Made by a program: the position numbers and the translations under genes | Notes under the pieces: model-generated | Told to the model about the DNA's origin: nothing | Seen by the model: the letters and a program-made list of their open reading frames with translations, nothing else | Database searches by the model: none | Assembly: GCA_947581795.1 (NCBI GenBank) | Contig: CANPVS010000013.1 | Span: forward strand, 64-64,063 | DNA length: 64,000 nt | From: an uncultured Oscillospiraceae bacterium | Lineage (GTDB): Bacteria; Bacillota; Clostridia; Oscillospirales; Oscillospiraceae | Reading direction: 5' to 3' | Part shown: in pieces, positions 27,499-45,959 of the stretch | Layout of the letters: each line of letters begins with the position of its first letter | How positions within the stretch are numbered: the stretch's first letter is position 1

Positions 27499-27501
27499 AT
27501 C

Positions 27502-27535
27502 AAAAAGAGACAGGATCGCGGTCCTGTCTCTTTTT
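27502..27535. terminator. bidirectional rho-independent terminator after rnpB
   Basis: AAAAA-GAGACAGGA-tcgcgg-TCCTGTCTC-TTTTT. Confidence 0.8.
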
Positions 27536-27559
27536 ATACCTTCTTGTAGGTATCTGTTT

Positions 27560-27588
27560 CTTGTAAACCACAAGATATTGTATTATAA
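27560..27588 (+). promoter_or_regulatory. sigma-A-type promoter for murD
   Basis: TTGTAA, 17-nt spacer, TATAAT. This places the ORF-track ATG at 27578 inside the promoter. Confidence 0.55.
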
Positions 27589-27613
27589 TACCTGTGATCG
27601 TGAGGTGTATGCC

Positions 27614-28999: not shown

Positions 29000-29002
29000 A
29001 CT

Positions 29003-30025: not shown

Positions 30026-30026
30026 T

Positions 30027-31049
30027 ATGATGCTGGATACTCTGGAGACCCTGTGCTGTCTGGAGGGCGTGTCCGGCGGGGAGGACGAGGTCCGGGACTA
30101 TATTCTGGAGCGCGTATTGCCTCACGCCGACGAGATACGCACCGACCCCTTGGGCAACCTGATGGTGTTCAAAAAGGGCGCTGTGACGCCGGAAAAGCGA
30201 GTCATGCTATGCGCCCATATGGATGAGGTGGGCCTCATCGTGACCCATATCACAGAGGACGGATATCTGCGCTTCGACCAGGCCGGCGGCATTGACCGTC
30301 GTGTCATCATCGGCAAGAAGGTGTTCGTTGGCCCGGGGCGCATCCTGGGCGTGGTGGGCTCCAAGGCCGTGCACATGACCACGGCGGAGCAGCGCAAAAA
30401 GCTGCCGGAAATAAAGGACATGTTCATCGACATCGGCGCGAAGGATAAGGCCGAGGCGGAAAAGCAGGTCCACATCGGCGACCTGGTGGCCTTTGATGAC
30501 CGGGTGGTCCGCTTTGGGGACGGCTTCGTGAAGGCCAAGGCCATCGACGACCGGGTTGGCTGCGCGACCATGGTAGAACTCATCGAGAGCGAACTTCCCT
30601 GTGACTGCTGGTTTGCCTTTACCACCCAGGAGGAGGTGGGCTCCCGGGGCGCCACGGTAGCGGCCCGGAGCATCCAGCCGGATGTGGCTCTCGTTCTGGA
30701 AGGCACCACGGCGGCGGATATCCCCGGCACGGAGGGGGCAGGTCGGGTGTGCCTGCTGGGCAGCGGCGTGGTGCTCCCCTTTATGGACAGGGGCACCATC
30801 TATGATAAGGACCTCCGGGCGACGCTCATCCGCCTGGCGGAGGAAAACGGCATCCCCTGGCAGACAAAGAGCATGATCGCCGGCGGCACCGACGGCTCCG
30901 TTGTCCAGCGCAGCGGCGCGGGCGCGGAGGTAGCTGCCCTGTCCGTAGCCGTGCGGAACATCCACTCCCCGGCGTGCGTGGCGAAGATTTCCGAGTGCGA
31001 GGATCAGCTGAAGCTGGCCAGGCTCTTCCTGGCGGAAATGGCGAAATGA
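30027..31049 (+). CDS. M42 family metallopeptidase (paralog 2)
   Basis: 340 aa with HMDEVGL, DDRVG and QEEVG motifs. In tandem with paralog 1. Confidence 0.85.
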   Translation: MMLDTLETLCCLEGVSGGEDEVRDYILERVLPHADEIRTDPLGNLMVFKKGAVTPEKRVMLCAHMDEVGLIVTHITEDGYLRFDQAGGIDRRVIIGKKVFVGPGRILGVVGSKAVHMTTAEQRKKLPEIKDMFIDIGAKDKAEAEKQVHIGDLVAFDDRVVRFGDGFVKAKAIDDRVGCATMVELIESELPCDCWFAFTTQEEVGSRGATVAARSIQPDVALVLEGTTAADIPGTEGAGRVCLLGSGVVLPFMDRGTIYDKDLRATLIRLAEENGIPWQTKSMIAGGTDGSVVQRSGAGAEVAALSVAVRNIHSPACVAKISECEDQLKLARLFLAEMAK

Positions 31050-31101
31050 TGTCATAATCCGTCGTCCCGGCGCATAGTCTCCCCTGATAGGGGGTGTAGC
31101 T

Positions 31102-31749
31102 ATGACGGCGAGACGCTGGCCCAGAAGAAGTCCTTTGAGTCCAGCGGTGCGCAGATGGCTGCTGGTACTGTTGATACTGTTTTTCGTGGTCACGACTGCC
31201 GCGGTGAGCGTGGTACTGCGGGACATGGTGACGGAATACGCCGTCTCCTCGGCCAGGGACCTGGTGGTGACGCGAGTCAACGCTATCGTCAAGGACGTGA
31301 TGACGGACCCCGCCTTTGCCGGGGAGGACCTGGTAGCGCTGAAATGGGACAATTCCGGCGCCGTCACGGCGGTGACCGCCAACGCCCCGGCCATCAACGC
31401 CCTGTCGGCGGAGGTGCTCTCCCGGGCCGTCCGGGAGACCGAGCAGGAGGCCATCAAGGTAAGGATACCCGTCATGAACCTGCTGGGCAGCGCGCTGTTC
31501 ATGAACCACGGACCCAGCCTCACTGTGGACGTGACCATGCTCTCGTCCAGCACGGCCAGCTTTCGCAGCGAGCTGACCGGCGCGGGCATCAACCAGACCC
31601 GCCACCAGATATTCCTGGACCTGGACGTACAGCTTTCTTTTCTCATGCCCTGGCGGGACATGCAAACCGACGTGCAGACGGAGATACTTGTATCCGAGAC
31701 CGTGATCGTGGGACGGGTGCCCGGCAGTTATATGAACTGGGAGAGATGA
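31102..31749 (+). CDS. yunB: sporulation protein YunB
   Basis: N-terminal TM helix, GINQTRHQIFLDLDV motif and C-terminal VIVGRVPGSY, as in YunB. Confidence 0.7.
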   Translation: MTARRWPRRSPLSPAVRRWLLVLLILFFVVTTAAVSVVLRDMVTEYAVSSARDLVVTRVNAIVKDVMTDPAFAGEDLVALKWDNSGAVTAVTANAPAINALSAEVLSRAVRETEQEAIKVRIPVMNLLGSALFMNHGPSLTVDVTMLSSSTASFRSELTGAGINQTRHQIFLDLDVQLSFLMPWRDMQTDVQTEILVSETVIVGRVPGSYMNWER

Positions 31750-31751
31750 TA

Positions 31752-33725
31752 ATGGAACCGACGATCAAAGACTATAACGAGCTGGTGGAGAAGCTCCTGG
31801 CGCTGTCCGTTGCCTACTACGACAACGACGCGCCCCTTGTGTCGGACTTTGAGTACGACATGATGAACAACTCCCTCAAGCGCATGGAGGCGGAGCATCC
31901 CGAGTGGATACGCCCCGACTCGCCCACCCAGCACGTGGGCGGCCACGTGAGCGAGGCCTTTGCCCCCGTGGCCCATGAGGTGCCGCTGGAGAGCCTTCAG
32001 GATGTATTCTCCTTCGAGGAGGTCGCCGGTTTCGTGGAGCGGATGGACGCCTCCGTCTCCGCGCCCCACGACTATGTGACGGAGCCGAAGATCGACGGGC
32101 TGTCCGTGGCGGTGGAGTACCATGACGGCTTGTTCTTCCGTGGCGCCACCCGTGGAAACGGCGAGGTGGGGGAGGACGTGACGGAAAATCTCCGCACCAT
32201 CCGCTCGCTGCCCAAGAAGCTGAAAAACGCACCGCCCCGGCTCATCGTCCGTGGCGAGGTATATATGTCCCACGACACCTTCAATACCCTCAACGCCCGG
32301 CGGGAAGTGGCAGGGGAGCCCTTGCTGGCCAATCCCCGCAACGCCGCCGCCGGTTCCCTGCGCCAGCAGGACCCGGCCGTGTGCGCCGAGCGGATGCTGG
32401 ATGTGATATTCTTCAACATCCAGCTGGCCGAGGGCAGGAGCTTCACCTCCCACTATGAGACCCTGGAGGCCATGGCGGCTATGGGTCTGCCCGTGGTGGC
32501 CCACACCCTGTGCAAGACGCCGAAGGAATGCACTGACACCATAAGCGCCATCGGCGAGGGCAGGGAGGGGTATCCCTTCGACATCGACGGGGCCGTGGTG
32601 AAGCTTAACGACCTCTTCCAGCGCCAGACCTTGGGCAGCACGGCGAAATATCCACGCTGGGCGGTGGCCTATAAGTATCCCCCGGAGAAGAAGCCCAGTA
32701 AGGTAGTGGATATCCTCATCCAGGTAGGCCGCACAGGCGTGCTCACGCCCAAGGCTGTCATTGAGCCCATACGTCTGGCCGGCACCACCGTCACCAACGC
32801 CACGCTCCATAACCAGGATTTCATTGAGAACATGGGCGTGAACGTGGGGGACACCGTGCTGGTGCAGAAGGCAGGGGAGATCATCCCCGAAGTGCTCCAG
32901 GTGGTGAAAAAGGAGAGCGACGGCTTCTTCCGATTCCCCGCGGTGTGCCCGGTGTGCGGCGCGCCCGCCGAGAGGGACGAGGACGGCGCGGCCATCCGCT
33001 GCACCGGCGCGGAGTGCCCGGCCCAGCGGCTTCGGAACATCGTCCACTTCGCCTCCAAGGACGCCATGGACATCGACGGCCTTGGTCCCGCGGTGGTGGA
33101 GGCCCTGGACAAGGCAGGACTCATCAAAACTCCGGCGGAGCTCTATACTCTGGACGCCCAATCCGTGGCCGCTGTGGACAGAATGGGAAAGAAGTCCGCG
33201 GAGAATCTGATCGCCCGCATTGAGGACAGCAAGGAAAGAGGCCTTGCCCGCCTCCTGTGCGCCTTCGGCATCCGGCAGGTGGGGGCCAAGGCGGCCAAGG
33301 TCCTGGCCCGGCGCTTCGCCACGCTGGACGAGCTCATGGACGCCGATGAGGAGACACTCACCGTCATCGACGACGTGGGGCCCATCACCGCACGGTATAT
33401 CGTCAAGTGGTTTGAAAATCCCCAGAGCCGCCACCAGATCGAACTTCTGCGCCAGGCCGGCGTCAGCTTTGACAGCCGGGAGGAGATCGCGGACACCCGC
33501 TTCGCCGGTAAGACCTTCGTCCTCACCGGCGCGCTGGAGCATTTCACCCGCTCAGAGGCGGAGGAGATCGTGGAGCGCTTCGGCGGCAAAGCCTCCGGCT
33601 CCGTGTCCAAGAAGACCTCCTATGTGCTGGCAGGGGCCGACCCGGGCTCCAAACTCACCAAGGCCCAGACATTGGGCGTCCCCATCATATCCGAGGAGGA
33701 TTTCCTCCGGATGATCGGGGAATAA
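31752..33725 (+). CDS. ligA: NAD-dependent DNA ligase
   Basis: Adenylation motif EPKIDGLS, Zn finger CPVCG..C..C, and HhH and BRCT regions. The ORF-track N-terminal extension from 31155 is rejected. Confidence 0.92.
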   Translation: MEPTIKDYNELVEKLLALSVAYYDNDAPLVSDFEYDMMNNSLKRMEAEHPEWIRPDSPTQHVGGHVSEAFAPVAHEVPLESLQDVFSFEEVAGFVERMDASVSAPHDYVTEPKIDGLSVAVEYHDGLFFRGATRGNGEVGEDVTENLRTIRSLPKKLKNAPPRLIVRGEVYMSHDTFNTLNARREVAGEPLLANPRNAAAGSLRQQDPAVCAERMLDVIFFNIQLAEGRSFTSHYETLEAMAAMGLPVVAHTLCKTPKECTDTISAIGEGREGYPFDIDGAVVKLNDLFQRQTLGSTAKYPRWAVAYKYPPEKKPSKVVDILIQVGRTGVLTPKAVIEPIRLAGTTVTNATLHNQDFIENMGVNVGDTVLVQKAGEIIPEVLQVVKKESDGFFRFPAVCPVCGAPAERDEDGAAIRCTGAECPAQRLRNIVHFASKDAMDIDGLGPAVVEALDKAGLIKTPAELYTLDAQSVAAVDRMGKKSAENLIARIEDSKERGLARLLCAFGIRQVGAKAAKVLARRFATLDELMDADEETLTVIDDVGPITARYIVKWFENPQSRHQIELLRQAGVSFDSREEIADTRFAGKTFVLTGALEHFTRSEAEEIVERFGGKASGSVSKKTSYVLAGADPGSKLTKAQTLGVPIISEEDFLRMIGE

Positions 33726-33732
33726 AAAGTGT

Positions 33733-33766
33733 ACCGGCGGCAGCGGTGCCGCCGGTGCTTTTTTGT
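33733..33766 (+). terminator. rho-independent terminator after ligA
   Basis: ACCGGCGGCA-gcgg-TGCCGCCGGT followed by a T-run. Confidence 0.8.
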
Positions 33767-33857
33767 GCAGAATTGGGCAGTCGTAAACGCTTGTGCAGCA
33801 TGTCGGAATGTAGTATAATAAAGTTTAATGACATTGAAAAGAAACAAGGAGACCGAA

Positions 33858-35234
33858 ATGGCGCAGACCCAGAACAGATTGGATTCCAGCCGTATGGGGG
33901 AGATGCCGGAGGGGCGGCTGCTTCTCTCCATCGCCGTTCCCATGATGCTTTCCATGCTGGTGCAGGCCCTGTACAACATCGTGGACAGCGTGTATGTATC
34001 CCGGGTGTCGGAGGACTGCCTGTCCGCCCTGAGCCTGGCGTTCCCGGCCCAGAACGTGATGATCGGCCTGGGGACCGGCACAGGCGTGGGCGTGAGTACG
34101 CTGGTGTCCCGTGCCCTGGGCAGCCGTAATGAAAAACTGGCCAGCCGCACGGCGGGCACGGCGGTAGCGCTGAGCTTCTGCTGCTGGCTGCTGATGGCCC
34201 TGTTCGGCATCTTCGGCGCGGACGCGTTCATCCGTTCCCAGACGGATATCGAAAGCATCCGGGCCTACACCGATTCCTATCTGCGCATCGTGACCATCGG
34301 GTCTACGTTCGTATATCTGGAGATATGCGCCGAGAGGCTGCTCCAGTCCACGGGGCTCACGACGCTGTCCATGTGGACCCAGATGATCGGCGCGGTCACC
34401 AACATCATCCTGGACCCGTTTTTCATCTACGGCTGGTGCGGCCTGCCCGCCATGGACACCGCCGGCGCCGCCATCGCCACCGTTATCGGCCAGGCCATGG
34501 GCGCGGGCGTGGGCTTTTTGTTCCACTTCAAAAAGAACAGGGAGCTTCCGCTCCACTGGCGCGACATCCGTCTGCCCTGGTCCATCGTGAAGGACATCTA
34601 CCGGATAGGCTTCCCATCCATCCTGATGGTGGCCATTGGCTCCATCACAAACTACCTAATGAACATCATCCTCATCGGCTTTACCTCCACGGCCGTGGCG
34701 GTGTACGGGGCCTATTTCAAGATCCAGAGTTTCTTCTTCATGCCTGTGTTCGGCCTGAACAATGGCATCATCCCCATCATCGGCTACAACTATGGCGCGC
34801 GGAAGAAGGAGCGCATCTATCGGACTATCCGCTACGGCGTGCTCTATGCCTCCTGCTTTATGATCCTGGGGCTCATATGCTTCCAATTCTTCCCGGAGTT
34901 TTTCCTGGGCATTTTCAGCCCCTCGGAGACCATGCTGTCCATCGGCGTACCCGCTCTGCGGCGCATCAGTCTGAGCTTCCTGCTGGCGGGCTTCTGCATC
35001 GTGGCCGGCTCCGCCTGCCAGGCGCTGGACAAGAGCTTTTATTCCTTCTTCGTGTCCGTGCTGCGGCAGGTATTGGCGCTGATCCCGGCGGCGTGGCTTT
35101 TGAGCCTCACCGGCAACGTGGACAACGTGTGGTGGTGTTTCCCCATCGCGGAACTGGTGAGTCTGGCCGCCAGCGCCTTCTTCCTGCGGAAGGCATTGAA
35201 GGACGTGGAGAAAAAACTGACGGCGCCTGTGTGA
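33858..35234 (+). CDS. MATE family efflux transporter
   Basis: 12-TM layout, N-terminal LLLSIAVPMMLSMLVQALYNIVDSVYVS motif. About 458 aa. Confidence 0.85.
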   Translation: MAQTQNRLDSSRMGEMPEGRLLLSIAVPMMLSMLVQALYNIVDSVYVSRVSEDCLSALSLAFPAQNVMIGLGTGTGVGVSTLVSRALGSRNEKLASRTAGTAVALSFCCWLLMALFGIFGADAFIRSQTDIESIRAYTDSYLRIVTIGSTFVYLEICAERLLQSTGLTTLSMWTQMIGAVTNIILDPFFIYGWCGLPAMDTAGAAIATVIGQAMGAGVGFLFHFKKNRELPLHWRDIRLPWSIVKDIYRIGFPSILMVAIGSITNYLMNIILIGFTSTAVAVYGAYFKIQSFFFMPVFGLNNGIIPIIGYNYGARKKERIYRTIRYGVLYASCFMILGLICFQFFPEFFLGIFSPSETMLSIGVPALRRISLSFLLAGFCIVAGSACQALDKSFYSFFVSVLRQVLALIPAAWLLSLTGNVDNVWWCFPIAELVSLAASAFFLRKALKDVEKKLTAPV

Positions 35235-35293: not shown

Positions 35294-35491
35294 TTACTTC
35301 ATCTTGTCGAAGGCGGGGTTCACGGCGTAGACGTTCCGCTTATCCATCTTTCCGGTGGCGATGGCCATGGCCTCGCCGAAGCGCTGAAAATGGACCACCT
35401 CCCGCTCCCGCAGGAACCGCATGACGTCTATCACGTCCGGGTCGTCGCACATGCGCAGGATGTTGTCGTAGGTCACCCGGGCCTTCTGCTC
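35294..35491 (-). pseudogene. cotJC: cotJC 3' segment (C-terminal approx. 65 codons of Mn-catalase-family spore coat protein), separated from its 5' segment by the element
   Basis: Encodes EQKARVTYDNILRMCDDPDVIDVMRFLREREVVHFQRFGEA... The 14 N-terminal residues of ORF 35294..35533 derive from element DNA. Confidence 0.85.
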
Positions 35492-35500
35492 TGGTACGAC
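35490..35500. repeat. left att junction: TC crossover core plus 9-bp terminal inverted repeat TGGTACGAC
   Basis: Reverse complement of the right terminus GTCGTACCA. The core TC is shared with the right junction. Confidence 0.8.
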
Positions 35501-35520
35501 CATGTAAGTACAACAAATCG

Positions 35521-37074
35521 CTAAAAATTCCAATGGATTTCGATTGGAACATCCCTTGTGCCGGGGATTCGTTTGCCAATGGTCACATAGTCGATCAGTG
35601 TGTCCACAATCTCACGGGTAAGGTGTTCTAGGTTGGTGTACTGTTCTATCAACTCACGGCGGTTGTCGCCAGCGGCGATACGTTCTTCTATCTCTGACAA
35701 CTGCTTCTCACCATCAGCAACAACGTGTTCCAGCCTGTCGCGCTCCGTAATAAAGTCCTGGGACATTTCCCTGTAATCGCTCTCGGAGATCAGCCCCTTG
35801 ACTTTATCCAGATAAAGTTCCCGGATACCCTTGGAATACTCCGCTATCTTTTTCTGATAGGTGGCTATGTCTGACTTTAGACTAGATTTTTTCTCCTGAA
35901 GGCTGCCGCAAAACTCAATGTTTCGCTCCAACTCGTCCTTGTCAAGATACTCCGCTGACAGCCTATTCAACTCCGCCAGTACCATCTGTTCCAGTTTGTC
36001 AACGGCGATGAACGCCCCCTCGCAGGCATCTCTTGACACATGGCGGGTGCAGCATTGCAGATAGTGGCGGCCTCGGCTTTTGGACGAGCGCATGACATAG
36101 CCGCAATTAGCACAACGGGCTTTTCGGGCGAATAGACCTAGTTCCCCGCTGTCAAAGGGTTTGGCACGCTGGTCGATCAACGCTTGGACTCTATCCCATA
36201 GGTCGCGGTCAATGATAGGCTCATGGGTGCCTTTCACGATAATCCATTGATCTTTTGGCCTTGGCCTGCAAATCTTGGTCTTATAGGACACACTGGCGTA
36301 TTTGCCCTGTACCATATTACCAATATAGATTTCATTTGACAGCATATCCGCGATGGCGAAGTATTTCCAGAGAGTACTGTTCTTCGTGGCTGGCTGCATA
36401 TAGCGCAGACCGTGCAGGCGCTTGTACTCCGTGGGATTCGGAATGCCTCGGTCGTTGAGCATCCGTGCGATGGCGGTCTTGCCATAGCCCTGGGCAAAGA
36501 GAGTGAATACCTCCCGGACAACGGCGGCGGCTTCCTCGTCGATGATAAGATGGCCTTTCTGTTCAGGGTCTTTCAAATAGCCATAGAGAGCAAAGGCCCC
36601 AATGTGAAAGCCGTTTTCCCGGCGGCTGGTCAGTACGCTGCGGATATTCTCAGACATATCCTCCAAATACCACTCGTTCACCAGCCCATTGATTTGGCGG
36701 GATTTTTTGTTGCCCTTGTTGGCGGTATCGGCGTTGTCCACGATGCTGATAAAGCGGATGCCCCAGAGCGGGAAGAGACCGTGTATGTACTTCTCCACCA
36801 ACTCCAGCTCGCGGGTGAAGCGGGATTGAGTCTTACAGAGAACAATGTCAAATTTCCGCTGCTCCGCGTCCTGCAGGAGCCGATTGAACTCCGGCCGCCG
36901 TCGGTCTGACCCCGTGTAGTCGTCGTCACTGTAGATATTGAAAAGCTCCCACCCCTGTTCCATTACATATTGCAGCAGCATGGCTTTCTGATTCTGAATG
37001 CTGTTGCTGTCGTCGGTCGCGTGCTGCTTGTTTCGGTCTTCTTCGCTCAATCTGCAATAGATTGCTACCTTCAT
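35521..37074 (-). CDS. large serine recombinase (resolvase domain + recombinase/zinc-ribbon + DUF4368-like coiled-coil; TndX/TnpX-like)
   Basis: MKVAIYCRLSEED catalytic Ser region, SRFTRE motif and Zn ribbon CANCGY..C..H. GAAAGGAG RBS upstream. The ORF-track start at 37155 is rejected. Confidence 0.9.
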   Translation of the reverse strand: MKVAIYCRLSEEDRNKQHATDDSNSIQNQKAMLLQYVMEQGWELFNIYSDDDYTGSDRRRPEFNRLLQDAEQRKFDIVLCKTQSRFTRELELVEKYIHGLFPLWGIRFISIVDNADTANKGNKKSRQINGLVNEWYLEDMSENIRSVLTSRRENGFHIGAFALYGYLKDPEQKGHLIIDEEAAAVVREVFTLFAQGYGKTAIARMLNDRGIPNPTEYKRLHGLRYMQPATKNSTLWKYFAIADMLSNEIYIGNMVQGKYASVSYKTKICRPRPKDQWIIVKGTHEPIIDRDLWDRVQALIDQRAKPFDSGELGLFARKARCANCGYVMRSSKSRGRHYLQCCTRHVSRDACEGAFIAVDKLEQMVLAELNRLSAEYLDKDELERNIEFCGSLQEKKSSLKSDIATYQKKIAEYSKGIRELYLDKVKGLISESDYREMSQDFITERDRLEHVVADGEKQLSEIEERIAAGDNRRELIEQYTNLEHLTREIVDTLIDYVTIGKRIPGTRDVPIEIHWNF

Positions 37075-37098
37075 AGTCCATACTCCTTTCGGAGATAG

Positions 37099-37146
37099 GA
37101 CAAGCCGTTTCCGGCAGGTAGTATACCACGCCGGAAACGGCTTGTC
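37099..37146. repeat. 17-bp perfect inverted repeat (stem-loop) just upstream of the recombinase RBS
   Basis: GACAAGCCGTTTCCGGC, 14-nt loop, GCCGGAAACGGCTTGTC. Confidence 0.85.
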
Positions 37147-37160
37147 TATTTCCAATGTAA

Positions 37161-37346
37161 TTATAATGACTTGGCCTGTTTACCTCTTTCTATGCGGTTG
37201 ATCAAATCAATCCACCGCCTTGTGTACTCCTCCTTGGATGGCGAACTACCCCGGAATATGCTCGTGCACAGCGGCTGTGGCTGTTTATCAACAGCACTAG
37301 GATGATGTCGTGTCATCAATATCACCAGACCTATCTTATGCCACAT
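37161..37346 (-). CDS. hypothetical small protein (doubtful; possible directionality-factor position)
   Basis: 61-aa ORF with a weak RBS and no recognisable motif. Confidence 0.25.
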   Translation of the reverse strand: MWHKIGLVILMTRHHPSAVDKQPQPLCTSIFRGSSPSKEEYTRRWIDLINRIERGKQAKSL

Positions 37347-37373
37347 GAATGAGAGGTAGCACCCTAGTTGGCG

Positions 37374-37976
37374 CTACCTCTTGTTGTCCTTCTGCAGCTG
37401 CTCGCGCAGCCGCCGCATTCGCTCCACCTCGGCGGCGTCGGGCGCGGTCGTGACCGTCTGCTCCGGGGCTGGTGACGGGGTGCCACGCTCGCGGAGCGCC
37501 CATGTCTGCACGGTTGCCTTCCAGTCATCTATCGGCTGACCATTCAGCTTCCAGCCTCTCGCTTGGTAGTAGGAATGAAACAGGGCCGCATTGACCCGCA
37601 ACCCATTAGCCTCACAAAACTCCTCAACCTCTACGAGAGAGGGTGGGACCCCTGATTTTTCCTCTCGCTCTTTATCATTATACTTTATTTTATTTTCTTT
37701 TATTTTTCTTTTTCCTTTTCCTTTTCCTTTTCCGCGGTCAGCATTTTGGTCAAAAGCGATTCGTTTGGTATTTGTGTCCTCCAATTTCGCTGTGTAATAA
37801 TCGACAACAGAGATCATTCGCCTTAGATAGAATTTAGCGTTGCCCACGACATCGCTGACCTCGCCAGTCATTGCGTAGCGTTGCCCGGCGCGGATGAGGG
37901 AGCCATACTCCTCATCCGAAAGGGCGTCCATCTCGTCAACAAAAGAATCCAGGAGCACGATGTAATACCTTTCCAT
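37374..37976 (-). CDS. phage/plasmid-type DUF6291-like protein with Lys/Gly-rich linker
   Basis: N-terminus is YIVLLDSFVDEMDALSDEEYGSLIRA. C-terminus has FHSYYQARGWKLNGQPIDDWKATVQTW. GGGAGG RBS. Confidence 0.6.
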   Translation of the reverse strand: MERYYIVLLDSFVDEMDALSDEEYGSLIRAGQRYAMTGEVSDVVGNAKFYLRRMISVVDYYTAKLEDTNTKRIAFDQNADRGKGKGKGKRKIKENKIKYNDKEREEKSGVPPSLVEVEEFCEANGLRVNAALFHSYYQARGWKLNGQPIDDWKATVQTWALRERGTPSPAPEQTVTTAPDAAEVERMRRLREQLQKDNKR

Positions 37977-38095
37977 TTTGGACCTCCCAAAAAGTAAAGT
38001 GTAGGGGTCTTGCGTCCCCTCAACTATCTACCATGATTTTTTATGACAAAGTGGGGTGCCGCTACAAATTGTTTACACTTTGTTAACATTTGGAT

Positions 38096-38128
38096 ATAAA
38101 AAGACGGAGGGACTCTAGCCCCTCCGTC
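38096..38128 (-). terminator. rho-independent terminator after the sigma-like gene
   Basis: GACGGAGGG / CCCTCCGTC stem, followed on the minus strand by TTTTTATATCC. Confidence 0.7.
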
Positions 38129-38161
38129 TCGTGACGTACGCGCCCGCTCACGTCAACAGGG

Positions 38162-38629
38162 TTACCTTAGCGTGTCAGCAATGCGTTTGACAATCTCCCA
38201 TGCCCAGCGCACACGTTCGTAGCTCGCGCCAGTCATCTCTGCGATCTCAGTGGTGTCGAATCCAGCCCCGCGCATGAGCAACACATTCCGTTGGAAGTCG
38301 GTCAGTTGCTCGACGATGCTTTGGAGCGTAATACGTTGCAGCGCGATCTCCTCCGCGCTGGCTCCGTACTCATCACGGCTGTGCACGACCACATCGAGCA
38401 GTTCTGGGGTTGCGGACCGATCGAGGGGTACGTAACATTTGCATATGTGACAATCACCGATGCAGCGCTGCCACACCGCACACTCGCACTGCCCTGTGGT
38501 GCGCATAAGGCGATACAGCTTGTGGCTACCGCCCTCATACGCACGCAGCACTTGCAGAGTTACAGGCACGCGGATTTGCATAATCCTCCCATCAACGTTG
38601 GTCTCGACAAGAACATAATGATCTGCCAT
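38162..38629 (-). CDS. sigma-70 region-4-like HTH protein with Cys-rich N-terminal part
   Basis: C-terminus LTDFQRNVLLMRGAGFDTTEIAEMTGASYERVRWAW resembles sigma region 4. N-terminal part has CECAVWQRCIGDCHICKC. Confidence 0.6.
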   Translation of the reverse strand: MADHYVLVETNVDGRIMQIRVPVTLQVLRAYEGGSHKLYRLMRTTGQCECAVWQRCIGDCHICKCYVPLDRSATPELLDVVVHSRDEYGASAEEIALQRITLQSIVEQLTDFQRNVLLMRGAGFDTTEIAEMTGASYERVRWAWEIVKRIADTLR

Positions 38630-38740
38630 CGCAAATCCTGCGCAACACCCCGGAGGGTAGCATGACAATGGCAATAATAGACCTCGGGCGCAGGGACTAC
38701 CCACCACTGTCTATCCGGTAGTCCTGCGCCCTTTCTTTTG

Positions 38741-38785
38741 AAATAAAAAGGCGCCAGCAAAGATTAAATAATCTTCACTGGCGCC
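38741..38785 (-). terminator. intrinsic terminator/attenuator inside the leader upstream of the sigma-like gene
   Basis: GGCGCCAG..AAGATT-aaat-AATCTT..CTGGCGCC, followed on the minus strand by TTTTTATTTC. Confidence 0.6.
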
Positions 38786-38818
38786 ATTCCCTCACAAAAC
38801 ATGGAGGGAAATATGCTA

Positions 38819-38858
38819 CCCCGGCATAGCGTGTCCGTGGGGACACGCCATGCCGGGG
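38819..38858. repeat. long two-helix hairpin in the intergenic leader
   Basis: CCCCGGCAT-a-GCGTGTCC-gtgg-GGACACGC-c-ATGCCGGGG. Confidence 0.8.
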
Positions 38859-39075
38859 CGCATACTCGTGCGCTATTTGTCTGTAATTAGCATACACTAA
38901 CCTACGCTGGGCCTCTCGGCCCATACGATCTTGTAGTAACAGGCCGCTCTGGGCGGTCAACTTCCTTAGTATGTGTATTATGACTCGAAAAAGCTCTGAA
39001 GTCAACCTAATTTTATATAAATTTTTAAGAAAATTTGAAGTGCGCTTTCAATCGCGTTGGTTGCGCACTTGGTAC

Positions 39076-39105
39076 TTGACTGCCGAGGTCATCTCATGTT
39101 ATAAT
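39076..39105 (+). promoter_or_regulatory. sigma-A-type promoter of the methyltransferase/helicase operon
   Basis: TTGACT, 18-nt spacer, TATAAT. Confidence 0.55.
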
Positions 39106-39129
39106 GTTGAAAATTATATAATATTCAAC
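39106..39129. promoter_or_regulatory. 24-bp near-perfect palindrome (operator candidate) abutting the -10 box
   Basis: GTTGAAAATTATATAATATTCAAC, self-complementary at 22 of 24 positions. Confidence 0.5.
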
Positions 39130-39148
39130 ATATTAAGGGGTGATCAAG

Positions 39149-39793
39149 GTGACACAGATCAAGAGCAAAGAGCGGGTGCAACGGCATGGCGAGGTATTCA
39201 CGGCACAGCACGAGGTAACCGCTATGCTAGATTTGGTGCGGAAAGAGGCCAAGAGGATAGACAGCACCTTTTTGGAGCCTGCCTGCGGCAACGGTGCCTT
39301 TCTTGCTGAAATCCTCCGGCGCAAGCTGAACACGGTGTTTCGCATGGCTGGCATGAACGATGCGGACTGTGAGTATTGGGCGACTAGGGCCTTCTCTACC
39401 ATCTACGGCATAGACATCATGGCGGACAATATCGCAGAGGCCCGTGAACGCCTGTTCAATGACTTCTTTGCCCGGTTTCTCAACCGATACAAGCACCAGC
39501 CCACGCACATCTGCATGGACAGCATCCGCTTCATATTGAGCCAGAATATCCAGCAGGCCGATTCCCTGACGTGCAAGACGGGTGGGGGAACAGACCTCAT
39601 AATGACCTCATGGGTCTTTGACGAGAACGACGGTCTGACCATCGGTCTGTTCCGCTATGCCGATATGGTCCGCTCCGGGTGCAGCTGCAAGCCTCTCCGG
39701 GTCTTGCCGAAAATCCCGTATATGATGCTCCCGGCTATCTTTCGGAGTGATGAATGCTGGACATGGCAGACTAGTCATGGTAGAATAATATAG
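39149..39793 (+). CDS. DNA N6-adenine-methyltransferase-like protein lacking the NPPY catalytic motif and TRD (paralog A)
   Basis: HGEVFTA (motif X-like), LEPACGNGAFL (motif I), IYGIDI (motif II), QQADSL (motif III); DLIMTSWVF sits where FDxIxGNPPY is expected. GTG start after AAGGGG (alternative GTG at 39140). Confidence 0.7.
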   Translation: MTQIKSKERVQRHGEVFTAQHEVTAMLDLVRKEAKRIDSTFLEPACGNGAFLAEILRRKLNTVFRMAGMNDADCEYWATRAFSTIYGIDIMADNIAEARERLFNDFFARFLNRYKHQPTHICMDSIRFILSQNIQQADSLTCKTGGGTDLIMTSWVFDENDGLTIGLFRYADMVRSGCSCKPLRVLPKIPYMMLPAIFRSDECWTWQTSHGRII

Positions 39794-39828
39794 ATTATTG
39801 AGCAATATTCCATGCGGGGTGAGTACGT

Positions 39829-40491
39829 TTGGAGCAGCAGATCAAGTCAAAGCAGCGGGTGGCCGATCACGGCGAGGTGTTCACAGCCGAACGAGAAGTG
39901 AACGCTATGTTGGACATGGTTAAACAGGAAACGGAGCGAATCGACTCCCGCTTCCTGGAACCCGCCTGTGGTGAGGGAGCTTTCCTGGCCGAAGTGCTGC
40001 GACGGAAGCTGGCTGTCGTGAAGCAAAAGTACGGACGAAACCCATCAGACTATGAACTCTACGCTTTGATTGCCGTGACGAGCATTTACGGCGTGGATAT
40101 AATGGAGGACAACACCGAGAACTGCCGCAAGCGGCTATTCAAGATATGGAATAAAGAATACACCGCCGTTATGAAGAAAGAGGCGAACGACCGCTGCCGT
40201 GAGGTCGTAAAGTTTATCTTCAAGAAGAACATCCTTTGCGGCGATGCCCTAAAAATGGAGCAGCAGGACGGAACCCCGATCCTATTCGCAGAGTGGAGCC
40301 AAGTATCCGGCAGCCTTATCAAGAGAAGGGACTTTGAGCTGAACGAACTTCTGAAAGGCCATGAACGGCAGATGGACATGGATATGCTCCTCGGCGGCTG
40401 GGAGTACGACGAGGAAATAGACGCATATATCCCGGCACCTATAAAGGAATACCCACCGACTGATTATAGGAGGTTGGATGATTATGAATGA
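39829..40491 (+). CDS. DNA N6-adenine-methyltransferase-like protein lacking the NPPY catalytic motif and TRD (paralog B)
   Basis: HGEVFTA, LEPACGEGAFL, IYGVDI and ILCGDAL, then PILFAEWSQV with no NPPY. TTG start. The N-terminal approx. 60 aa are clearly paralogous to A. Confidence 0.7.
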   Translation: MEQQIKSKQRVADHGEVFTAEREVNAMLDMVKQETERIDSRFLEPACGEGAFLAEVLRRKLAVVKQKYGRNPSDYELYALIAVTSIYGVDIMEDNTENCRKRLFKIWNKEYTAVMKKEANDRCREVVKFIFKKNILCGDALKMEQQDGTPILFAEWSQVSGSLIKRRDFELNELLKGHERQMDMDMLLGGWEYDEEIDAYIPAPIKEYPPTDYRRLDDYE

Positions 40492-42103
40492 TGATTTTTT
40501 CGATGCTGTTTATAACCCGGATGTTCTGTCCTGCATCGCAAACTTGAGCAGCGACGAGGTATTCACGCCGCCCGGTATTGCAAATGATGTTCTGGATATG
40601 CTGCCCCAGGAGCTTTTCCAAAGCCGGGACACCACCTTCCTTGACCCCGGCTCCAAGAGCGGTATCTTTTTGCGGGAGATCGCAAAGCGGCTCCTCAGAG
40701 CGCAGATTCCAGGCTATGAACGGATCGCCCGAGAAATACGCCAGAAACAGCGTGAAGGGGGCACACTGGACCCGGACGAGGAATCCTTTTTGGAAGTCCT
40801 ACAGGAGAACATAGACCACATCTTTCATAACCAGCTTTTCGGTATTGCTGTTACTGAACTTACCAGCCTTCTTTCCAGGCGGAGCGTCTACTGTTCCAAA
40901 TTCCCAAACAGTGAGTTCTCCATTTCTCATTTCGACTCCGCGGAGGGAAATATCCGTTTCCGGCGCACCCAGCACATTTGGGATAAGAACGGAAGTTGTA
41001 AGTATTGTGGCGCATCCAAAGAATTATATGACCGAGGGGATAAGCTGGAAACCCATGCGTATGAGTTCATCCACACGAAAAAGCCGGAGGATATTTTCTC
41101 GATGAAGTTTGATGTTATTATCAGTAATCCGCCATACGCCCAGGACACAGCAGGGGCTGGCCGTCAAGCCAAACCCCTTTATAATTTGTTTGTTGAACAA
41201 GCGAAAAAACTTCATCCACGGTATCTGTGTATGATTATTCCGTCTCGCTGGTTTTCTGGCGGCATGGGTCTGGATGATTTCCGTAAATCCATGATTTCGG
41301 ATGCTCATATCACAAAGATGGTTGACTTCACCAATTCAAAAGATTGTTTTCCAGGGGTCAGCGTAAGCGGCGGCGTGTCATATTTTCTGTGGGAACGGGA
41401 CAAAACATCTGAATGTGAGTTTACTAATATAACGAATGGTGAAACAAATGTGATGGTACGCCCGTTAAATGAGTTCTCGACCCTCGTTAGATACAACAGC
41501 GCTGTTTCAATCATCCACAAGGTCAACGCTCTGACAAAGGAGAAACTTGAAACTATTATTAGTTCTCTTATGCCCTATGGGCTGTCCACCAGCTATCGCG
41601 GCAGAGCACTAAAAACAGAGAGGAGCCAACTCACGTTGTATGCCAGTAATGGTGTGACATATATAAATCGGAACGAGATCACAAAGGGACTTGAAACAGT
41701 CGATAAATATAAAATCCTTGTGAGTAAGACAAGCGCGGAGCACGCGGGAGAACCTGGGAACGATGGTAAATTCAAGGTTATCCCTTCGTCCATGAAGGTC
41801 ATTGGCCCTGGGGATGTGTGTACCCATTCATATTTCATTATTGGAAATTGGGACAGCGAATCTCCCGCTAAAAACGCCCTGTCTTACATGAGGACAAAGT
41901 TTGTCAGATTCTTGATGCTACTTTGTATCAGCGGCTTTGGTCTATCCAAAATTGTCTTTCCATTTGTACCAATGCAAGACTTCTCTAAGCCTTGGACAGA
42001 CAAAGAATTGTATGCGAAGTATGGCCTGACGGATAAAGAAATCGAGTTCATCGAATCTATGATTAAGCCTATGGACGGCGCAGATGAAGATGTTGAGCCG
42101 TAA
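40478..42103 (+). CDS. Eco57I-family (gamma-class) N6-adenine DNA methyltransferase with C-terminal putative target-recognition region
   Basis: DEVFTPP (motif X), FLDPGSKSGIFL (motif I) and VIISNPPYAQ (motif IV). 541 aa. Overlaps paralog B by 14 nt. Confidence 0.85.
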   Translation: MIMNDDFFDAVYNPDVLSCIANLSSDEVFTPPGIANDVLDMLPQELFQSRDTTFLDPGSKSGIFLREIAKRLLRAQIPGYERIAREIRQKQREGGTLDPDEESFLEVLQENIDHIFHNQLFGIAVTELTSLLSRRSVYCSKFPNSEFSISHFDSAEGNIRFRRTQHIWDKNGSCKYCGASKELYDRGDKLETHAYEFIHTKKPEDIFSMKFDVIISNPPYAQDTAGAGRQAKPLYNLFVEQAKKLHPRYLCMIIPSRWFSGGMGLDDFRKSMISDAHITKMVDFTNSKDCFPGVSVSGGVSYFLWERDKTSECEFTNITNGETNVMVRPLNEFSTLVRYNSAVSIIHKVNALTKEKLETIISSLMPYGLSTSYRGRALKTERSQLTLYASNGVTYINRNEITKGLETVDKYKILVSKTSAEHAGEPGNDGKFKVIPSSMKVIGPGDVCTHSYFIIGNWDSESPAKNALSYMRTKFVRFLMLLCISGFGLSKIVFPFVPMQDFSKPWTDKELYAKYGLTDKEIEFIESMIKPMDGADEDVEP

Positions 42104-42650
42104 CGAGGAATACTACGACCGTTACACCGAACTTCAGGACCTGGTTCTGCGGGCCTATATTGACGTGCTGTCCCTTGAAGAAATAACCTCTGCTGTAGGG
42201 ACAAACCAAGACAGCCATATTGAAATGCTGGATGTCAGCATCAACGCCTTGGGCCATATCTGTGAACTGCTGAAGGCAGATATGGCGCTTACCATCTGGA
42301 AGATTTACTATGAATCGTATGGCTGGGCGAATAACATTGGAAATCTGAACCGTGATTTCTTCGCGCCTCGCGGTGAGCGCCGAGAAACAAAACTCCCAAA
42401 GGACCTTAAAACATACAAGGCACCCATTCAAACCCTACGAAAAGAATACCTTGCTCATAACAGCGCCGAGAAAAGCGGAACGAGCATATCCGTGCAGGCG
42501 TTAAGGGCTGTTCTGGATGCCATAAAGGATTTGCTGAACGGATTGTGCGATCCCACGCTGGACAGCCGCGTGGAACCTGTCACAGAGTCCGCTTTGTACA
42601 CGCTGGATATAAACGTAAAACTCGGCCTTGGTACAGTCATCAGAAAGTGA
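42084..42650 (+). CDS. hypothetical helical protein, HEPN-like (AbiU2-type) candidate
   Basis: 188 aa. RKEYLAH fits the HEPN Rx4-6H motif near the expected position. Overlaps the MTase stop by 20 nt. Confidence 0.45.
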   Translation: MKMLSRNEEYYDRYTELQDLVLRAYIDVLSLEEITSAVGTNQDSHIEMLDVSINALGHICELLKADMALTIWKIYYESYGWANNIGNLNRDFFAPRGERRETKLPKDLKTYKAPIQTLRKEYLAHNSAEKSGTSISVQALRAVLDAIKDLLNGLCDPTLDSRVEPVTESALYTLDINVKLGLGTVIRK

Positions 42651-42686
42651 TGTGCTTTTCTGCCAGGCAAAATGGAGGGTCATCCT

Positions 42687-45674: not shown

Positions 45675-45686
45675 GAGGAGATCAGA

Positions 45687-45869: not shown

Positions 45870-45881
45870 GACAGCAAAAAA

Positions 45882-45953: not shown

Positions 45954-45959
45954 AACAGA

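What the first reader, a model, noticed from the sequence alone, without database searches (positions are those of the whole stretch)
35521..37146. Skin-like developmental excision, or a plain insertional knock-out of cotJC?
Several sporulation genes are known to be interrupted by elements that a large serine recombinase removes in the mother cell. Examples are sigK/skin with SpoIVCA and spsM/SPbeta with SprA. To my knowledge cotJC is not among the classic cases.

The host here has sporulation genes (yunB, a spoVB-like gene, the cotJ operon, a LysM/DUF3794 protein). The insertion is exactly reversible, and cotJC is a mother-cell-expressed gene. That is the situation in which germline-preserving excision is tolerated.

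I could not identify a convincing SigE/SigK-type promoter by eye. The recombinase gene is preceded by a strong 17-bp stem-loop (37099..37146) rather than an obvious promoter. Regulation is therefore open.
Basis: inference. Interest (0 to 1): 0.75.

Follow-up and report, generated by a model that had tools for sequence, protein, structure and literature searches.

The report
Mobile element splitting spore-coat gene cotJC
A 14.8-kb mobilizable DNA element carrying a serine recombinase sits precisely inside the spore-coat gene cotJC of a gut Clostridium; it belongs to a very large family that targets this same codon in hundreds of species, and whether it pops out in the mother cell during sporulation is plausible but still unproven.

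Summary
Window 35521..37074 (-) encodes a 517-aa large serine recombinase (LSR), 29 bp inside the left end of a 14,765-bp low-GC element (35492..50256) that splits cotJC. Joining the flanks at a TC core restores an intact 200-aa CotJC.

The 17-bp stem-loop is real, but it does not replace a promoter. It brackets a sigma-A-type promoter (TAGACA-17-TGgTATACT).

The element is not a one-off. At least 578 species genomes encode relatives of the LSR. In 77 of the 80 closest, the gene abuts a cotJC fragment broken at codon 133-136, in either orientation. Element sizes range from 3 kb to over 14 kb.

cotJC-interrupting elements were already noted by Abe 2013 (as cited in a later preprint) and Galperin 2022.

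For developmental excision:
- A conserved small ORF (candidate directionality factor) lies next to the LSR.
- 52 of 57 distinct relatives have a sigma-E-type promoter in front of that ORF.
- SpoIIID-consensus boxes, including an exact TAGGACAAGC, flank the LSR promoter.
- cotJC remains under strong purifying selection.
- SPbeta and skinCd are wired the same way.

Against:
- This element's subgroup lacks the sigma-E motif and keeps only a sigma-K-like -10.
- It carries transfer genes, and the family clearly moves horizontally.
- No attP joints were found.

I put mother-cell excision at about 0.45.

The parts
35294..35491 (-). C-terminal fragment of cotJC (codons 136-200 plus stop). 35490-35491 is the TC crossover core at attL.
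   Evidence: Pfam Mn_catalase positions 149-199; reconstruction; alignment to intact CotJC.
35492..35520 (.). Near-end att half-site of the element: TGGTACGAC-CATG-TAAGTACAAC. It is the inverted partner of 50227..50254.
   Evidence: Inverted repeat I6; attP reconstruction; the same half-site architecture in relatives.
35521..37074 (-). Large serine recombinase gene (517 aa plus stop), transcribed outward toward the cotJC C fragment.
   Evidence: Pfam Resolvase/Recombinase/Zn_ribbon_recom/DUF4368; more than 7000 homologues; 77/80 closest genomic relatives abut cotJC.
37083..37094 (-). Small hairpin CTCC-GAAA-GGAG that sequesters the recombinase Shine-Dalgarno sequence. The equivalent in relatives is CTATCTC..GAGATAG.
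   Evidence: Sequence; MFE structure. The function is inferred.
37099..37146 (.). It most likely terminates the small-ORF transcript, and the recombinase promoter is embedded in it.
   Evidence: conserved in 48/58 distinct relatives; 8 of 14 pairs show compensatory changes.
37120..37148 (-). Sigma-A-type promoter of the recombinase: -35 TAGACA (37148..37143), 17-nt spacer, extended -10 TGgTATACT (-10 hexamer at 37125..37120).
   Evidence: Promoter scan, 10/12 with TG; the same promoter at the same position in 51/58 distinct relatives.
37096..37105 (+). Exact match to the B. subtilis SpoIIID idealized site TAGGACAAGC, at about +10..+25 of the recombinase promoter. A second box, ATAGACAAGC, lies at 37140..37149 (-) and overlaps the -35.
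   Evidence: It is the only exact copy in the 64 kb. Consensus taken from PMC11180830. The family consensus is (T/A)(A/G)(G/A)(A/G)ACAAGC at a fixed distance from the start codon. SpoIIID binding is inferred, not shown.
37161..37316 (-). Conserved small ORF (51 aa; ...LCTSIFRG...EEYTRRWIDLINRIERGK). It is a candidate recombination directionality factor or regulator.
   Evidence: Present next to the recombinase in nearly all relatives, including 3-kb mini-elements. More than 1000 clusters, all 'hypothetical', with no Pfam/NCBIfam/PHROG hit.
37332..37358 (-). Sigma-K-like motif AC-15-CATAAGATA just upstream of the small ORF. The -10 is perfect but the -35 and spacing are imperfect.
   Evidence: It is the only such hit in the element, and about 1.4 are expected by chance (my estimate). 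The -10 block is conserved in the 95%-identical relative L011. This is weak evidence.
37374..38707 (-). Two element genes: a 200-aa DUF6291-like protein (37374..37976) and a 181-aa protein with a sigma-70 region-4 HTH (38162..38707).
   Evidence: Pfam, NCBIfam and PHROGs.
39140..45674 (+). Cargo: a split Type IIG-like restriction-modification module. It has two short methyltransferase-like ORFs, an Eco57I-type methylase, a 188-aa ORF and a 1000-aa T5orf172 + ResIII helicase/nuclease.
   Evidence: Pfam; PADLOC.
45986..47457 (-). DUF2442 and DUF4160 small genes and a SprT-like protein.
   Evidence: Pfam; PHROGs.
47541..49888 (-). Mobilization module: a type IV coupling protein (TrwB_AAD_bind/TraG-D_C, 534 aa), translationally coupled to an upstream 248-aa protein of unknown family.
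   Evidence: Pfam; NCBIfam TraD/VirD4-like. No relaxase family hit.
49889..50226 (.). Far-end non-coding region with GC-rich inverted repeats (50012..50052 and 49924..50119), a possible oriT. It contains a third SpoIIID-like box, TGGGACAAGC, at 50184..50193 (-).
   Evidence: Inverted repeats I5, I13 and I16; box; similar far-end copies in relatives. The oriT assignment is inferred.
50227..50256 (.). Far-end att half-site (GTTGTCCTT-TCCA-CGTCGTACCA) plus the TC core (50255..50256) at attR.
50257..50661 (-). N-terminal fragment of cotJC (codons 1-135). The open frame runs on into the element to a stop at 50218.
   Evidence: Pfam Mn_catalase positions 1-150.
50664..51248 (-). cotJA/cotJB region of the host cotJ operon.
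   Evidence: Pfam CotJA + CotJB; gene calls in L100.

Best explanation
The region is the integration/excision module of a 14.8-kb integrative mobilizable element. The module is a large serine recombinase plus an adjacent small accessory ORF. The element's attachment site is a highly conserved stretch of the mother-cell spore-coat gene cotJC, at codon 135/136 with a GA/TC core.

Shown:
- The recombinase family targets this exact position in hundreds of Clostridia.
- The insertion is precisely reversible.
- The recombinase has its own sigma-A-type promoter, embedded in a conserved hairpin, and a sequestered ribosome-binding site.
- The element carries a coupling protein and a restriction-modification cargo.

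Inferred:
- The recombinase is made at a low constitutive level, as for SPbeta SprA and skinCd CD1231.
- Direction and timing are set by the small ORF acting as a directionality factor.
- That ORF is switched on both for transfer and in the sporulating mother cell. The mother-cell signal would be a sigma-E-type promoter in most relatives and a weaker sigma-K-like -10 here, possibly with SpoIIID acting on the boxes around the recombinase promoter.
- Excision would therefore rebuild cotJC in the terminal mother cell while the forespore keeps the element.
For: Identity and reversibility.

Family-wide targeting:
- 9 of 10 host contexts of one identical recombinase protein are followed by a cotJC fragment (8 by gene call; 9 by tblastn).
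- 77/80 species-representative loci show the same.
- At least 120 attL joints occur in metagenomes.

Sigma-A promoter and hairpin.

Small ORF: it is always adjacent, even in 3.1-kb elements.

Sigma-E-type promoter:
- An ATA-15-CATA promoter lies in front of the small ORF in 52/57 distinct relatives, against about 2-3% of random windows.
- It is kept in mini-elements that have no sigma gene (L016/L026).
- It is kept in a 71%-identical high-GC relative.
- It resembles the promoter of a bona fide spoIIID gene.
- The sigma-E versus sigma-K consensus is taken from PMC3789822.

SpoIIID boxes: an exact TAGGACAAGC and two near-copies.

Selection:
- Split cotJC fragments are intact in about 42/48 species.
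- dN/dS is 0.03 between two occupied genomes whose recombinases are about as diverged as the hosts.

Convergence: other LSR lineages hit cotJC at three further positions.

Precedents: sprA and CD1231 are constitutive from sigma-A promoters, while the directionality factor is sporulation-controlled.
Against: - This element and its 95%-identical relative lack the sigma-E-type motif. The only sporulation-like signal before the small ORF is AC-15-CATAAGATA, which is about what chance gives.
- The SpoIIID-like boxes lie over the -35 and downstream of the start site. Those positions suit repression more than activation.
- The boxes overlap sequences constrained for other reasons (the -35 GACA, hairpin pairing and the RBS hairpin). 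They are missing in a 71%-identical cotJC-targeting relative.
- The family is strongly horizontally mobile. An identical protein occurs in many hosts, and 85%-identical recombinases occur across Lachnospiraceae and Oscillospiraceae. Intact cotJC halves could therefore simply reflect recent insertions.
- No attP (excised) joint was found in assembled metagenomes.
- The small ORF has no demonstrated function.
Confidence: 0.45

Rival explanations
1. Plain insertion by a mobile element. cotJC is merely a conserved landing site that is dispensable for vegetative growth. The gene stays knocked out in carriers, and excision happens only rarely and in connection with transfer.
For: - The element has a coupling protein and a likely mobilization module.
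- The family moves across host families.
- The recombinase promoter is sigma-A type.
- There is no sigma-E motif in this element.
- attP:attL joints in metagenomes are 0 versus at least 120.
- In C. difficile, cotCB and cotD mutants have only mild coat defects (PMC11222575), so loss may be tolerated.
- Targeting the most conserved codons of a widespread gene is the usual strategy of site-specific elements.
Against: - cotJC is under strong purifying selection (dN/dS 0.03-0.15), yet a large number of species representatives carry an insertion.
- Fragments almost never show decay.
- The sigma-E-type promoter before the small ORF is conserved across the family, including in mini-elements without transfer genes. 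A transfer-only model gives no reason for it.
- To my knowledge, LSR elements in sporulation genes that have been tested excise during sporulation. Examples are skin, SPbeta and gin; yin in yabG shows growth-phase-dependent excision.
Confidence: 0.4
2. A domesticated, immobile skin-like element that the host retains purely as a developmental switch for cotJC.
For: Mini-elements of 3-6 kb, with little more than the recombinase and the small ORF, exist in relatives.
Against: - The window's element still has a coupling protein, a restriction-modification cargo and a lower GC content than the host.
- A near-identical module occurs with different cargo in a sister host.
- The family is spreading horizontally.
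- Intact, unoccupied cotJC is common in close relatives.
Confidence: 0.07
3. An assembly artefact or chimera that joins unrelated contigs at cotJC.
For: One short contig from the same host ends exactly at the crossover.
Against: - The same junctions, with the identical recombinase and host flanks, were assembled independently in several samples.
- Both junctions share the TC core and inverted half-sites.
- The same architecture recurs in dozens of genomes.
Confidence: 0.01

Closest known systems
skinCd of Clostridioides difficile (LSR CD1231 plus directionality factor CD1234, in sigK)
   Same: - An LSR element splits a mother-cell sporulation gene in a Clostridium.
- The recombinase has a sigma-A-type promoter flanked by inverted repeats, with an RBS inside a repeat, and is constitutive.
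- Timing comes from a small accessory protein under sigma-E and SpoIIID (PMC5025042).
   Different: - The target is cotJC, not sigK.
- The small ORF here is unrelated by annotation and untested.
- This element has no clear sigma-E promoter.
- It carries conjugation-type genes and a restriction-modification system rather than phage remnants.
SPbeta prophage in spsM of Bacillus subtilis (SprA/SprB)
   Same: It is an active mobile element with dual use of excision. sprA is sigma-A driven and constitutive. sprB is induced both for the mobile life cycle and from a mother-cell promoter with a perfect -10 and an imperfect -35 (PMC4191935). The -10/-35 pattern resembles AC-15-CATAAGATA here.
   Different: SPbeta is a 134-kb phage, whereas this is a 14.8-kb mobilizable element with no phage genes. 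No homology between the small ORF and SprB was tested.
gin element in gerE of Bacillus cereus ATCC 10987
   Same: It is a non-prophage, minimal gene-intervening element carrying essentially a recombinase, and it is reconstituted during sporulation (PMC5595907, abstract). It is comparable to the 3-6-kb relatives found here.
   Different: The gene, host clade and recombinase lineage all differ. The window's element is larger and carries cargo.
cotJC-interrupting elements already listed in surveys
   Same: The same target gene is involved. [quoted passage not shown] 2013 (bioRxiv 10.1101/2021.11.22.469490).
   Different: Those are listings without mechanism or experiments, in other taxa. I could not read Abe 2013. 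As far as I could find, the size of the gut-Clostridia family, its promoter features and the multiple insertion positions are not described there.
Tn5397 / TndX and related DUF4368 serine recombinases of clostridial conjugative transposons
   Same: The domain architecture is the same, including DUF4368, and the crossover core is a GA dinucleotide. Many relatives share the orf7/orf8-like sigma/HTH genes and a pemK RNA motif upstream.
   Different: - Identity to TndX is only about 31%.
- TndX elements do not sit in cotJC.
- The TndX upstream region lacks the sigma-E-type motif and the hairpin-embedded promoter.

Membership tests
Large serine recombinase (LSR) | N-terminal resolvase catalytic domain with the active-site serine, followed by a recombinase domain, a zinc ribbon and a coiled-coil/C-terminal extension | tested here: met
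   Pfam PF00239, PF07508, PF13408 and PF14287 in that order over 517 aa. The N-terminus is MKVAIYCRLSEED, with the Y-x-R-x-S serine motif.
Large serine recombinase (LSR) | Short att sites with inverted half-sites around a 2-bp crossover core and no long target duplication | tested here: met
   A TC core is shared by both junctions. There are 9-bp perfect inverted repeats plus outer GTTGT/ACAAC motifs. Flipping the core (GA versus TC) accompanies the opposite insertion orientation.
Sporulation gene-intervening element (skin-like) | Interrupts a gene expressed in the mother cell during sporulation | tested here: met
   The target is cotJC, the third gene of a cotJA-cotJB-cotJC operon. In C. difficile the homologous cotCB and cotD operons are sigma-K dependent (PMC3789822). 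Expression in this host was not tested.
Sporulation gene-intervening element (skin-like) | Precise excision restores an intact reading frame | tested here: met
   The in-silico joint gives a 200-aa CotJC that is collinear with intact homologues.
Sporulation gene-intervening element (skin-like) | Recombinase or directionality factor under sigma-E/sigma-K (and SpoIIID) control | tested here: inconclusive
   - The recombinase has a sigma-A-type promoter.
- The small ORF is preceded only by AC-15-CATAAGATA.
- Relatives have an ATA-15-CATA motif in 52/57 cases.
- SpoIIID-consensus boxes flank the recombinase promoter.
All of these are sequence matches only.
Sporulation gene-intervening element (skin-like) | Excision occurs during sporulation and only in the mother cell | not testable with these tools
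   This needs cultures. The only indirect data are 0 attP versus at least 120 attL joints in assembled metagenomes, and one contig that breaks exactly at the crossover.
Integrative mobilizable element (IME) | Integrase plus att sites, and horizontal distribution across hosts | tested here: met
Integrative mobilizable element (IME) | Own mobilization functions (relaxase and oriT, sometimes a coupling protein) but no full mating apparatus | tested here: inconclusive
   A coupling protein is present. No T4SS genes are present. No recognizable relaxase was found. The adjacent 248-aa protein has no family hit. The inverted repeats at the far end could be an oriT.
Integrative conjugative element (ICE) | Encodes a complete type IV secretion/mating system | tested here: not met
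   Only a coupling protein was found. There is no VirB4, VirB6 or other T4SS family among the element's ORFs.
Prophage or prophage remnant | Phage structural, packaging or lysis genes | tested here: not met
   No capsid, terminase, tail or lysis family was found. PHROG hits are only to unknown-function families, a methyltransferase and a sigma-like regulator. No phage record encodes a recombinase more than 45% identical.
Tn5397/TndX family | Close relationship to TndX and its target preference | tested here: not met
   Identity to TndX is about 31%, and the target and upstream region differ.

The most novel reading that the evidence does not exclude
A very large family of mobilizable and conjugative-type elements in gut Clostridia has wired its recombination unit into the mother-cell programme. 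The wiring would consist of a sigma-E-type promoter on a new small directionality factor and SpoIIID boxes around the recombinase promoter. cotJC would then be a cost-free 'safe harbour': split in the germ line and rebuilt in the terminal mother cell. At least four independent serine-recombinase lineages have converged on this one gene, sometimes two in the same copy. This resembles the interruption elements of heterocyst genes in cyanobacteria.
Probability: 0.4. Interest if true: 0.8.

Novelty: new member of a known kind. Interest (0 to 1): 0.58.

Why it matters
If excision is developmental, cotJC joins sigK, spsM, spoVFB, spoVR, gerE and yabG as a gene rebuilt in the mother cell. It would also show that non-phage, transfer-competent elements carrying defence or resistance cargo use terminal differentiation to remove the cost of interrupting a conserved gene. 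That could help explain why such elements are so common in spore-forming gut commensals.

The family also supplies several useful things:
- an uncharacterized small protein that may be a new directionality factor for serine integrases;
- natural pairs of integrases whose att sites differ in core polarity;
- several cultured carrier strains in which the question can be tested directly.

If excision is not developmental, the finding is an ordinary site-specific insertion into a tolerated gene.

Tried and rejected
- **Rfam scan of the element.** No known RNA family was found. The pemK RNA motif seen in relatives is absent here.
- **Sigma-E/sigma-K consensus scan across the whole element.** Sigma-E-like hits are all intragenic or antisense. 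The only sigma-K-like hit is the one before the small ORF, at roughly chance frequency.
- **attP (excised circle) joints with a degenerate family pattern in metagenome contigs.** None were found. Assembled data therefore do not reveal circles.
- **Empty-site search in the same host by exact protein look-up.** It yielded only one 2.1-kb contig, which stops exactly at the crossover. This suggests a branch point but proves nothing. The cotJA/B look-up found nothing.
- **Pfam, NCBIfam, PHROGs and PADLOC on the small ORF and the 248-aa protein.** No hits.
- **The palindrome as a pseudo-att site bound by the recombinase.** Rejected as unlikely, because the ACAAG motifs point toward the centre, opposite to their orientation in attP (reading).
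- **The palindrome as a single-strand promoter.** Rejected, because the -10 lies in the loop and the hairpin offers no template strand (inference).
- **Abe et al. 2013.** The paper could not be read.
- **Phage and plasmid collections.** They gave only distant relatives, except one Subdoligranulum contig, which is also in cotJC.
Full report
**1. What is there**

The window is about 62% GC, but 35.5-50.2 kb drops to about 51%.

The minus-strand ORF at 35521..37155 encodes a large serine recombinase (LSR). Pfam finds Resolvase, Recombinase, Zn_ribbon_recom and DUF4368 in order. The true start is the ATG at 37074 (MKVAIYCRLSEE), 8 nt after AAAGGAG. All homologues begin there.

Immediately downstream on the same strand lies a 65-codon fragment of a manganese-catalase gene (35294..35491). 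The matching N-terminal 135 codons lie at 50257..50661, behind cotJA/cotJB.

Both junctions share a TC dinucleotide. The element ends are inverted half-sites: TGGTACGAC...GTCGTACCA, with outer GTTGT/ACAAC motifs. Deleting 35492..50256 (14,765 bp) yields a 200-aa CotJC. It aligns gap-free with intact 200-aa proteins at up to 94% identity. The joint falls in the invariant stretch EDMGAEQKAR-TYDNILRM.

**2. The element**

Reading from the far end, it carries:
- a non-coding region with GC-rich inverted repeats;
- a 248-aa protein of unknown family, coupled to a type IV coupling protein (TrwB/TraG-D_C);
- a SprT-like protein;
- a DUF4160/DUF2442 pair;
- a split Type IIG-like restriction-modification module;
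- a sigma-70 region-4 protein;
- a DUF6291-like protein;
- a small ORF;
- the recombinase.

There are no phage structural genes and no T4SS. I therefore class it as an integrative mobilizable element, with the caveat that no relaxase was recognized.

The same element in the same host context was assembled across both junctions in several independent samples. It is not an assembly artefact.

**3. It is one of a huge family that targets cotJC**

The protein search returned more than 7000 homologues, and the best 120 are all at least 80% identical.

One cluster representative (85% identical; 513 member sequences, seen on 279 contigs, and indexed in 495 blocks of the contig collection) occurs in many different host neighbourhoods. 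By gene call, 8 of 10 places have a short Mn_catalase fragment right after the recombinase; tblastn raises this to 9 of 10.

A scan of species-representative genomes found at least 578 relatives. Among the 80 closest (78-95% identity), 77 have a cotJC fragment broken at codon 133-136 right after the recombinase. Hosts include Oscillospiraceae, Lachnospiraceae, Ruminococcaceae, Anaerotignum, Anaerotruncus, Lacrimispora, Blautia and Pseudoflavonifractor.

Sixteen of the 80 are in the opposite orientation. Their near-end half-site is almost the same, but the core reads TC instead of GA. This is a natural illustration that the central dinucleotide sets polarity.

Sizes range from 3.1 kb (L016: one MBL-fold gene, the small ORF and the recombinase) upward.

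TndX of Tn5397 is only about 31% identical, and no phage record exceeds 45%.

**4. Prior knowledge**

cotJC is not a classic case, but it has been recorded.
- A 2021 preprint cites Abe et al. [quoted passage not shown]
- Galperin et al. 2022 report a skin-like element in cotJC of Laceyella sacchari.

I found no experimental test for cotJC.

**5. The stem-loop and the promoter**

The 17-bp hairpin at 37099..37146 is real (z = -6.8). It contains a sigma-A-type promoter. TAGACA lies in the left arm, followed by a 17-nt spacer, and TGgTATACT lies in the loop.

This architecture is family-wide among 58 distinct upstream sequences:
- 51 have at least 9/12 matches at the same position;
- 44 have the extended TG;
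- 48 have at least 8 base pairs bracketing the -10.

RNAalifold finds 14 pairs, 8 with compensatory double changes. Pairing itself is therefore selected.

The left arm begins at the -35, so it is transcribed only from upstream. The simplest reading is that the hairpin ends or stabilizes the small-ORF transcript, and that the recombinase promoter is embedded in it (inference).

A second small hairpin sequesters the Shine-Dalgarno sequence.

skinCd's CD1231 promoter is described in very similar terms: sigma-A boxes, flanking inverted repeats and an RBS inside a repeat. It is constitutive. sprA of SPbeta is likewise sigma-A driven. A housekeeping promoter on the recombinase is therefore what the developmental systems themselves show.

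**6. The small ORF**

A 45-55-aa ORF sits directly upstream of the recombinase in almost every member, including the window. Its consensus is C-x-SVFKSGE-TTSK-x-FTKKWIELINRLEK. The window's version is LCTSIFRG...EEYTRRWIDLINRIERGK.

It forms more than 1000 clusters, all annotated 'hypothetical', with no Pfam, NCBIfam or PHROG family.

It travels with the recombinase even in 3-kb elements. That makes it the obvious candidate for a recombination directionality factor. This is inference only.

**7. Sporulation-type signals**

*(a) Sigma-E-type promoter.* In 52 of 57 distinct relatives the small ORF is preceded, at a fixed distance, by ATA-N-CATA with 15-nt spacing. Examples are TAATAGT-15-CATATAGT, TAATATT-15-CATACGCT and GCATAAC-15-CATACGTT. 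Such a pattern occurs in 2-3% of random 120-nt windows.
- The ATA and CATA cores stay fixed while other positions vary.
- The motif persists in mini-elements without any sigma-like gene, so a host factor must read it.
- It also persists in a 71%-identical relative in a high-GC host.
- In C. difficile, sigma-E and sigma-K share the -10 and differ by ATA versus AC at -35.
- A genuine spoIIID gene found by chance in locus L027 has TAATATT-14-CATAGTAT.

*(b) SpoIIID boxes.* The outer parts of the palindrome match the B. subtilis SpoIIID site.
- The window has the exact idealized 10-mer TAGGACAAGC at 37096..37105. It is the only exact copy in the 64 kb.
- ATAGACAAGC overlaps the -35.
- TGGGACAAGC lies about 65 bp inside the far end.
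- The family consensus is (T/A)(A/G)(G/A)(A/G)ACAAGC, 19-21 nt from the start codon. Of 58 sequences, 38 fit WWRRACAR-Y exactly and 26 are within one mismatch of the idealized site.
- The box is kept in a clade that has lost the hairpin.

*Caveats on the boxes.*
- They overlap the -35 GACA, the stem and the RBS hairpin.
- Their positions suit repression.
- A 71% relative lacks them.

*(c) The window's own element.* The window and its 95% relative (L011-L015) lack the sigma-E motif. The small ORF is preceded by a terminator-like hairpin and then AC-15-CATAAGATA. That is a perfect sigma-K-type -10 with imperfect spacing, and it is roughly what chance would give once in the element. The sprB promoter is described in the same terms: a perfect -10 and an imperfect -35.

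**8. Selection and persistence**

C-terminal cotJC fragments are full-length, with all conserved motifs, in about 42 of 48 orientation-A species. The exceptions are contig ends or further insertions.

Between two occupied genomes with related mini-elements (L016 and L026):
- cotJC has dN/dS 0.029 at dS 0.50;
- the recombinases have dS 0.35.

That is compatible with long co-residence while cotJC stayed under constraint. It is not proof, because independent recent insertions from a diverged pool would look the same.

Other pairs clearly show horizontal transfer. Recombinase dS exceeds host dS for the window versus L016. Recombinases 85% identical occur across bacterial families.

**9. Excised forms**

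A degenerate attP pattern found no hit in metagenome contigs. Circles are therefore rare in assemblies, as either hypothesis predicts.

One contig from the same host ends at exactly the last host base before the element. This hints at alternative paths at the crossover.

**10. Weighing**

Identity, reversibility, family membership and the promoter architecture are shown. Mother-cell excision is inferred.

For it:
- the target gene;
- the precedent of elements of this kind that have been tested;
- the conserved sigma-E-type promoter next to the recombination unit;
- the SpoIIID-type boxes;
- strong constraint on a gene that is nevertheless very often occupied;
- convergence of other LSR lineages on the same gene (section 11).

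Against it, for this element specifically:
- the missing sigma-E motif;
- the presence of transfer genes;
- evident recent mobility.

I put dual-use excision (transfer plus mother cell) at about 0.45 for this element and somewhat higher for the family. Plain knock-out stands at about 0.40.

**11. Beyond the finding**

cotJC is interrupted at other positions (about codons 30, 62 and 176) by unrelated LSRs that are 20-30% identical. Sometimes this occurs together with the codon-136 element, so that the gene is in three pieces (L086).

Noticed in passing
L086 917..11868; also L040, L046, L068, L074, L081: cotJC is interrupted at other positions (about codons 30, 62 and 176) by elements with unrelated serine recombinases (20-30% identity). 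In L086 two elements split the gene into three pieces. cotJC looks like a multi-site landing pad, reminiscent of interruption elements in heterocyst genes.
   Followed up: partly
L029, L030, L033, L085, L088, L090, L091 and others (16 of 80 loci): Elements of the same family are inserted in the opposite orientation at the same codon. Their near-end half-site is almost unchanged, but the crossover core reads TC instead of GA. These are natural pairs showing that the central dinucleotide alone sets integration polarity.
   Followed up: partly
L002 3566..3663; L029 9578..9675; L034 6455..6535; also L098 (Tn5397-type tndX locus): Relatives carry the Rfam pemK RNA motif (RF02913) between the orf7/orf8-like sigma/HTH genes and the small ORF. 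The sequence upstream of tndX in L098 looks very similar by eye but was not scanned. The window's element has no such motif. Its role in these elements is unknown.
   Followed up: partly
L099 (2110 bp), end of contig = window 35491: A metagenomic contig of the same host ends at exactly the last host base before the element. This suggests an assembly-graph branch (occupied versus empty, or differently occupied sites) in that sample.
   Followed up: partly
L020 3643..3760; L054 3820..3930; L019 1555..1650: A second att-like half-site or junction lies 60-100 bp beyond the recombinase end. This suggests tandem or nested accretion of elements at the cotJC site. L019 looks like an attP-type joint between two elements.
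   Followed up: no
window 39140..45674: The cargo is an unusual split Type IIG-like restriction-modification module. It has two truncated-looking methyltransferase ORFs, an Eco57I-type methylase, and a 1000-aa T5orf172 (GIY-YIG-like) + ResIII helicase with a C-terminal tudor-like tail.
   Followed up: partly
window 49889..50226: A GC-rich region (unlike the rest of the element) with a 19-bp near-perfect hairpin (50012..50052) nested in a 23-bp inverted repeat (49924..50119), next to the coupling-protein operon. It is possibly an oriT.
   Followed up: no
L096 (Subdoligranulum variabile OY725880.1): A 43%-identical recombinase with a homologous small ORF and a sigma-E-like motif (GCATATC-14-CATACCGT) abuts a P-type cation ATPase fragment rather than cotJC. 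Whether that ATPase is a sporulation gene (yloB-like) was not checked.
   Followed up: no
L016 1653..2417: The 3.1-kb mini-element in cotJC carries a single cargo gene, an MBL-fold metallo-hydrolase, besides the small ORF and the recombinase.
   Followed up: no
window 27500..35234: The host flank (Mur ligase, two M42 peptidases, yunB, ligA, MatE) is syntenic with contigs of a sister Oscillospiraceae from rabbit-gut MAGs (L011-L015). Those carry a 95%-identical recombinase with different cargo (AAA_14/DUF4143) in their cotJC.
   Followed up: partly
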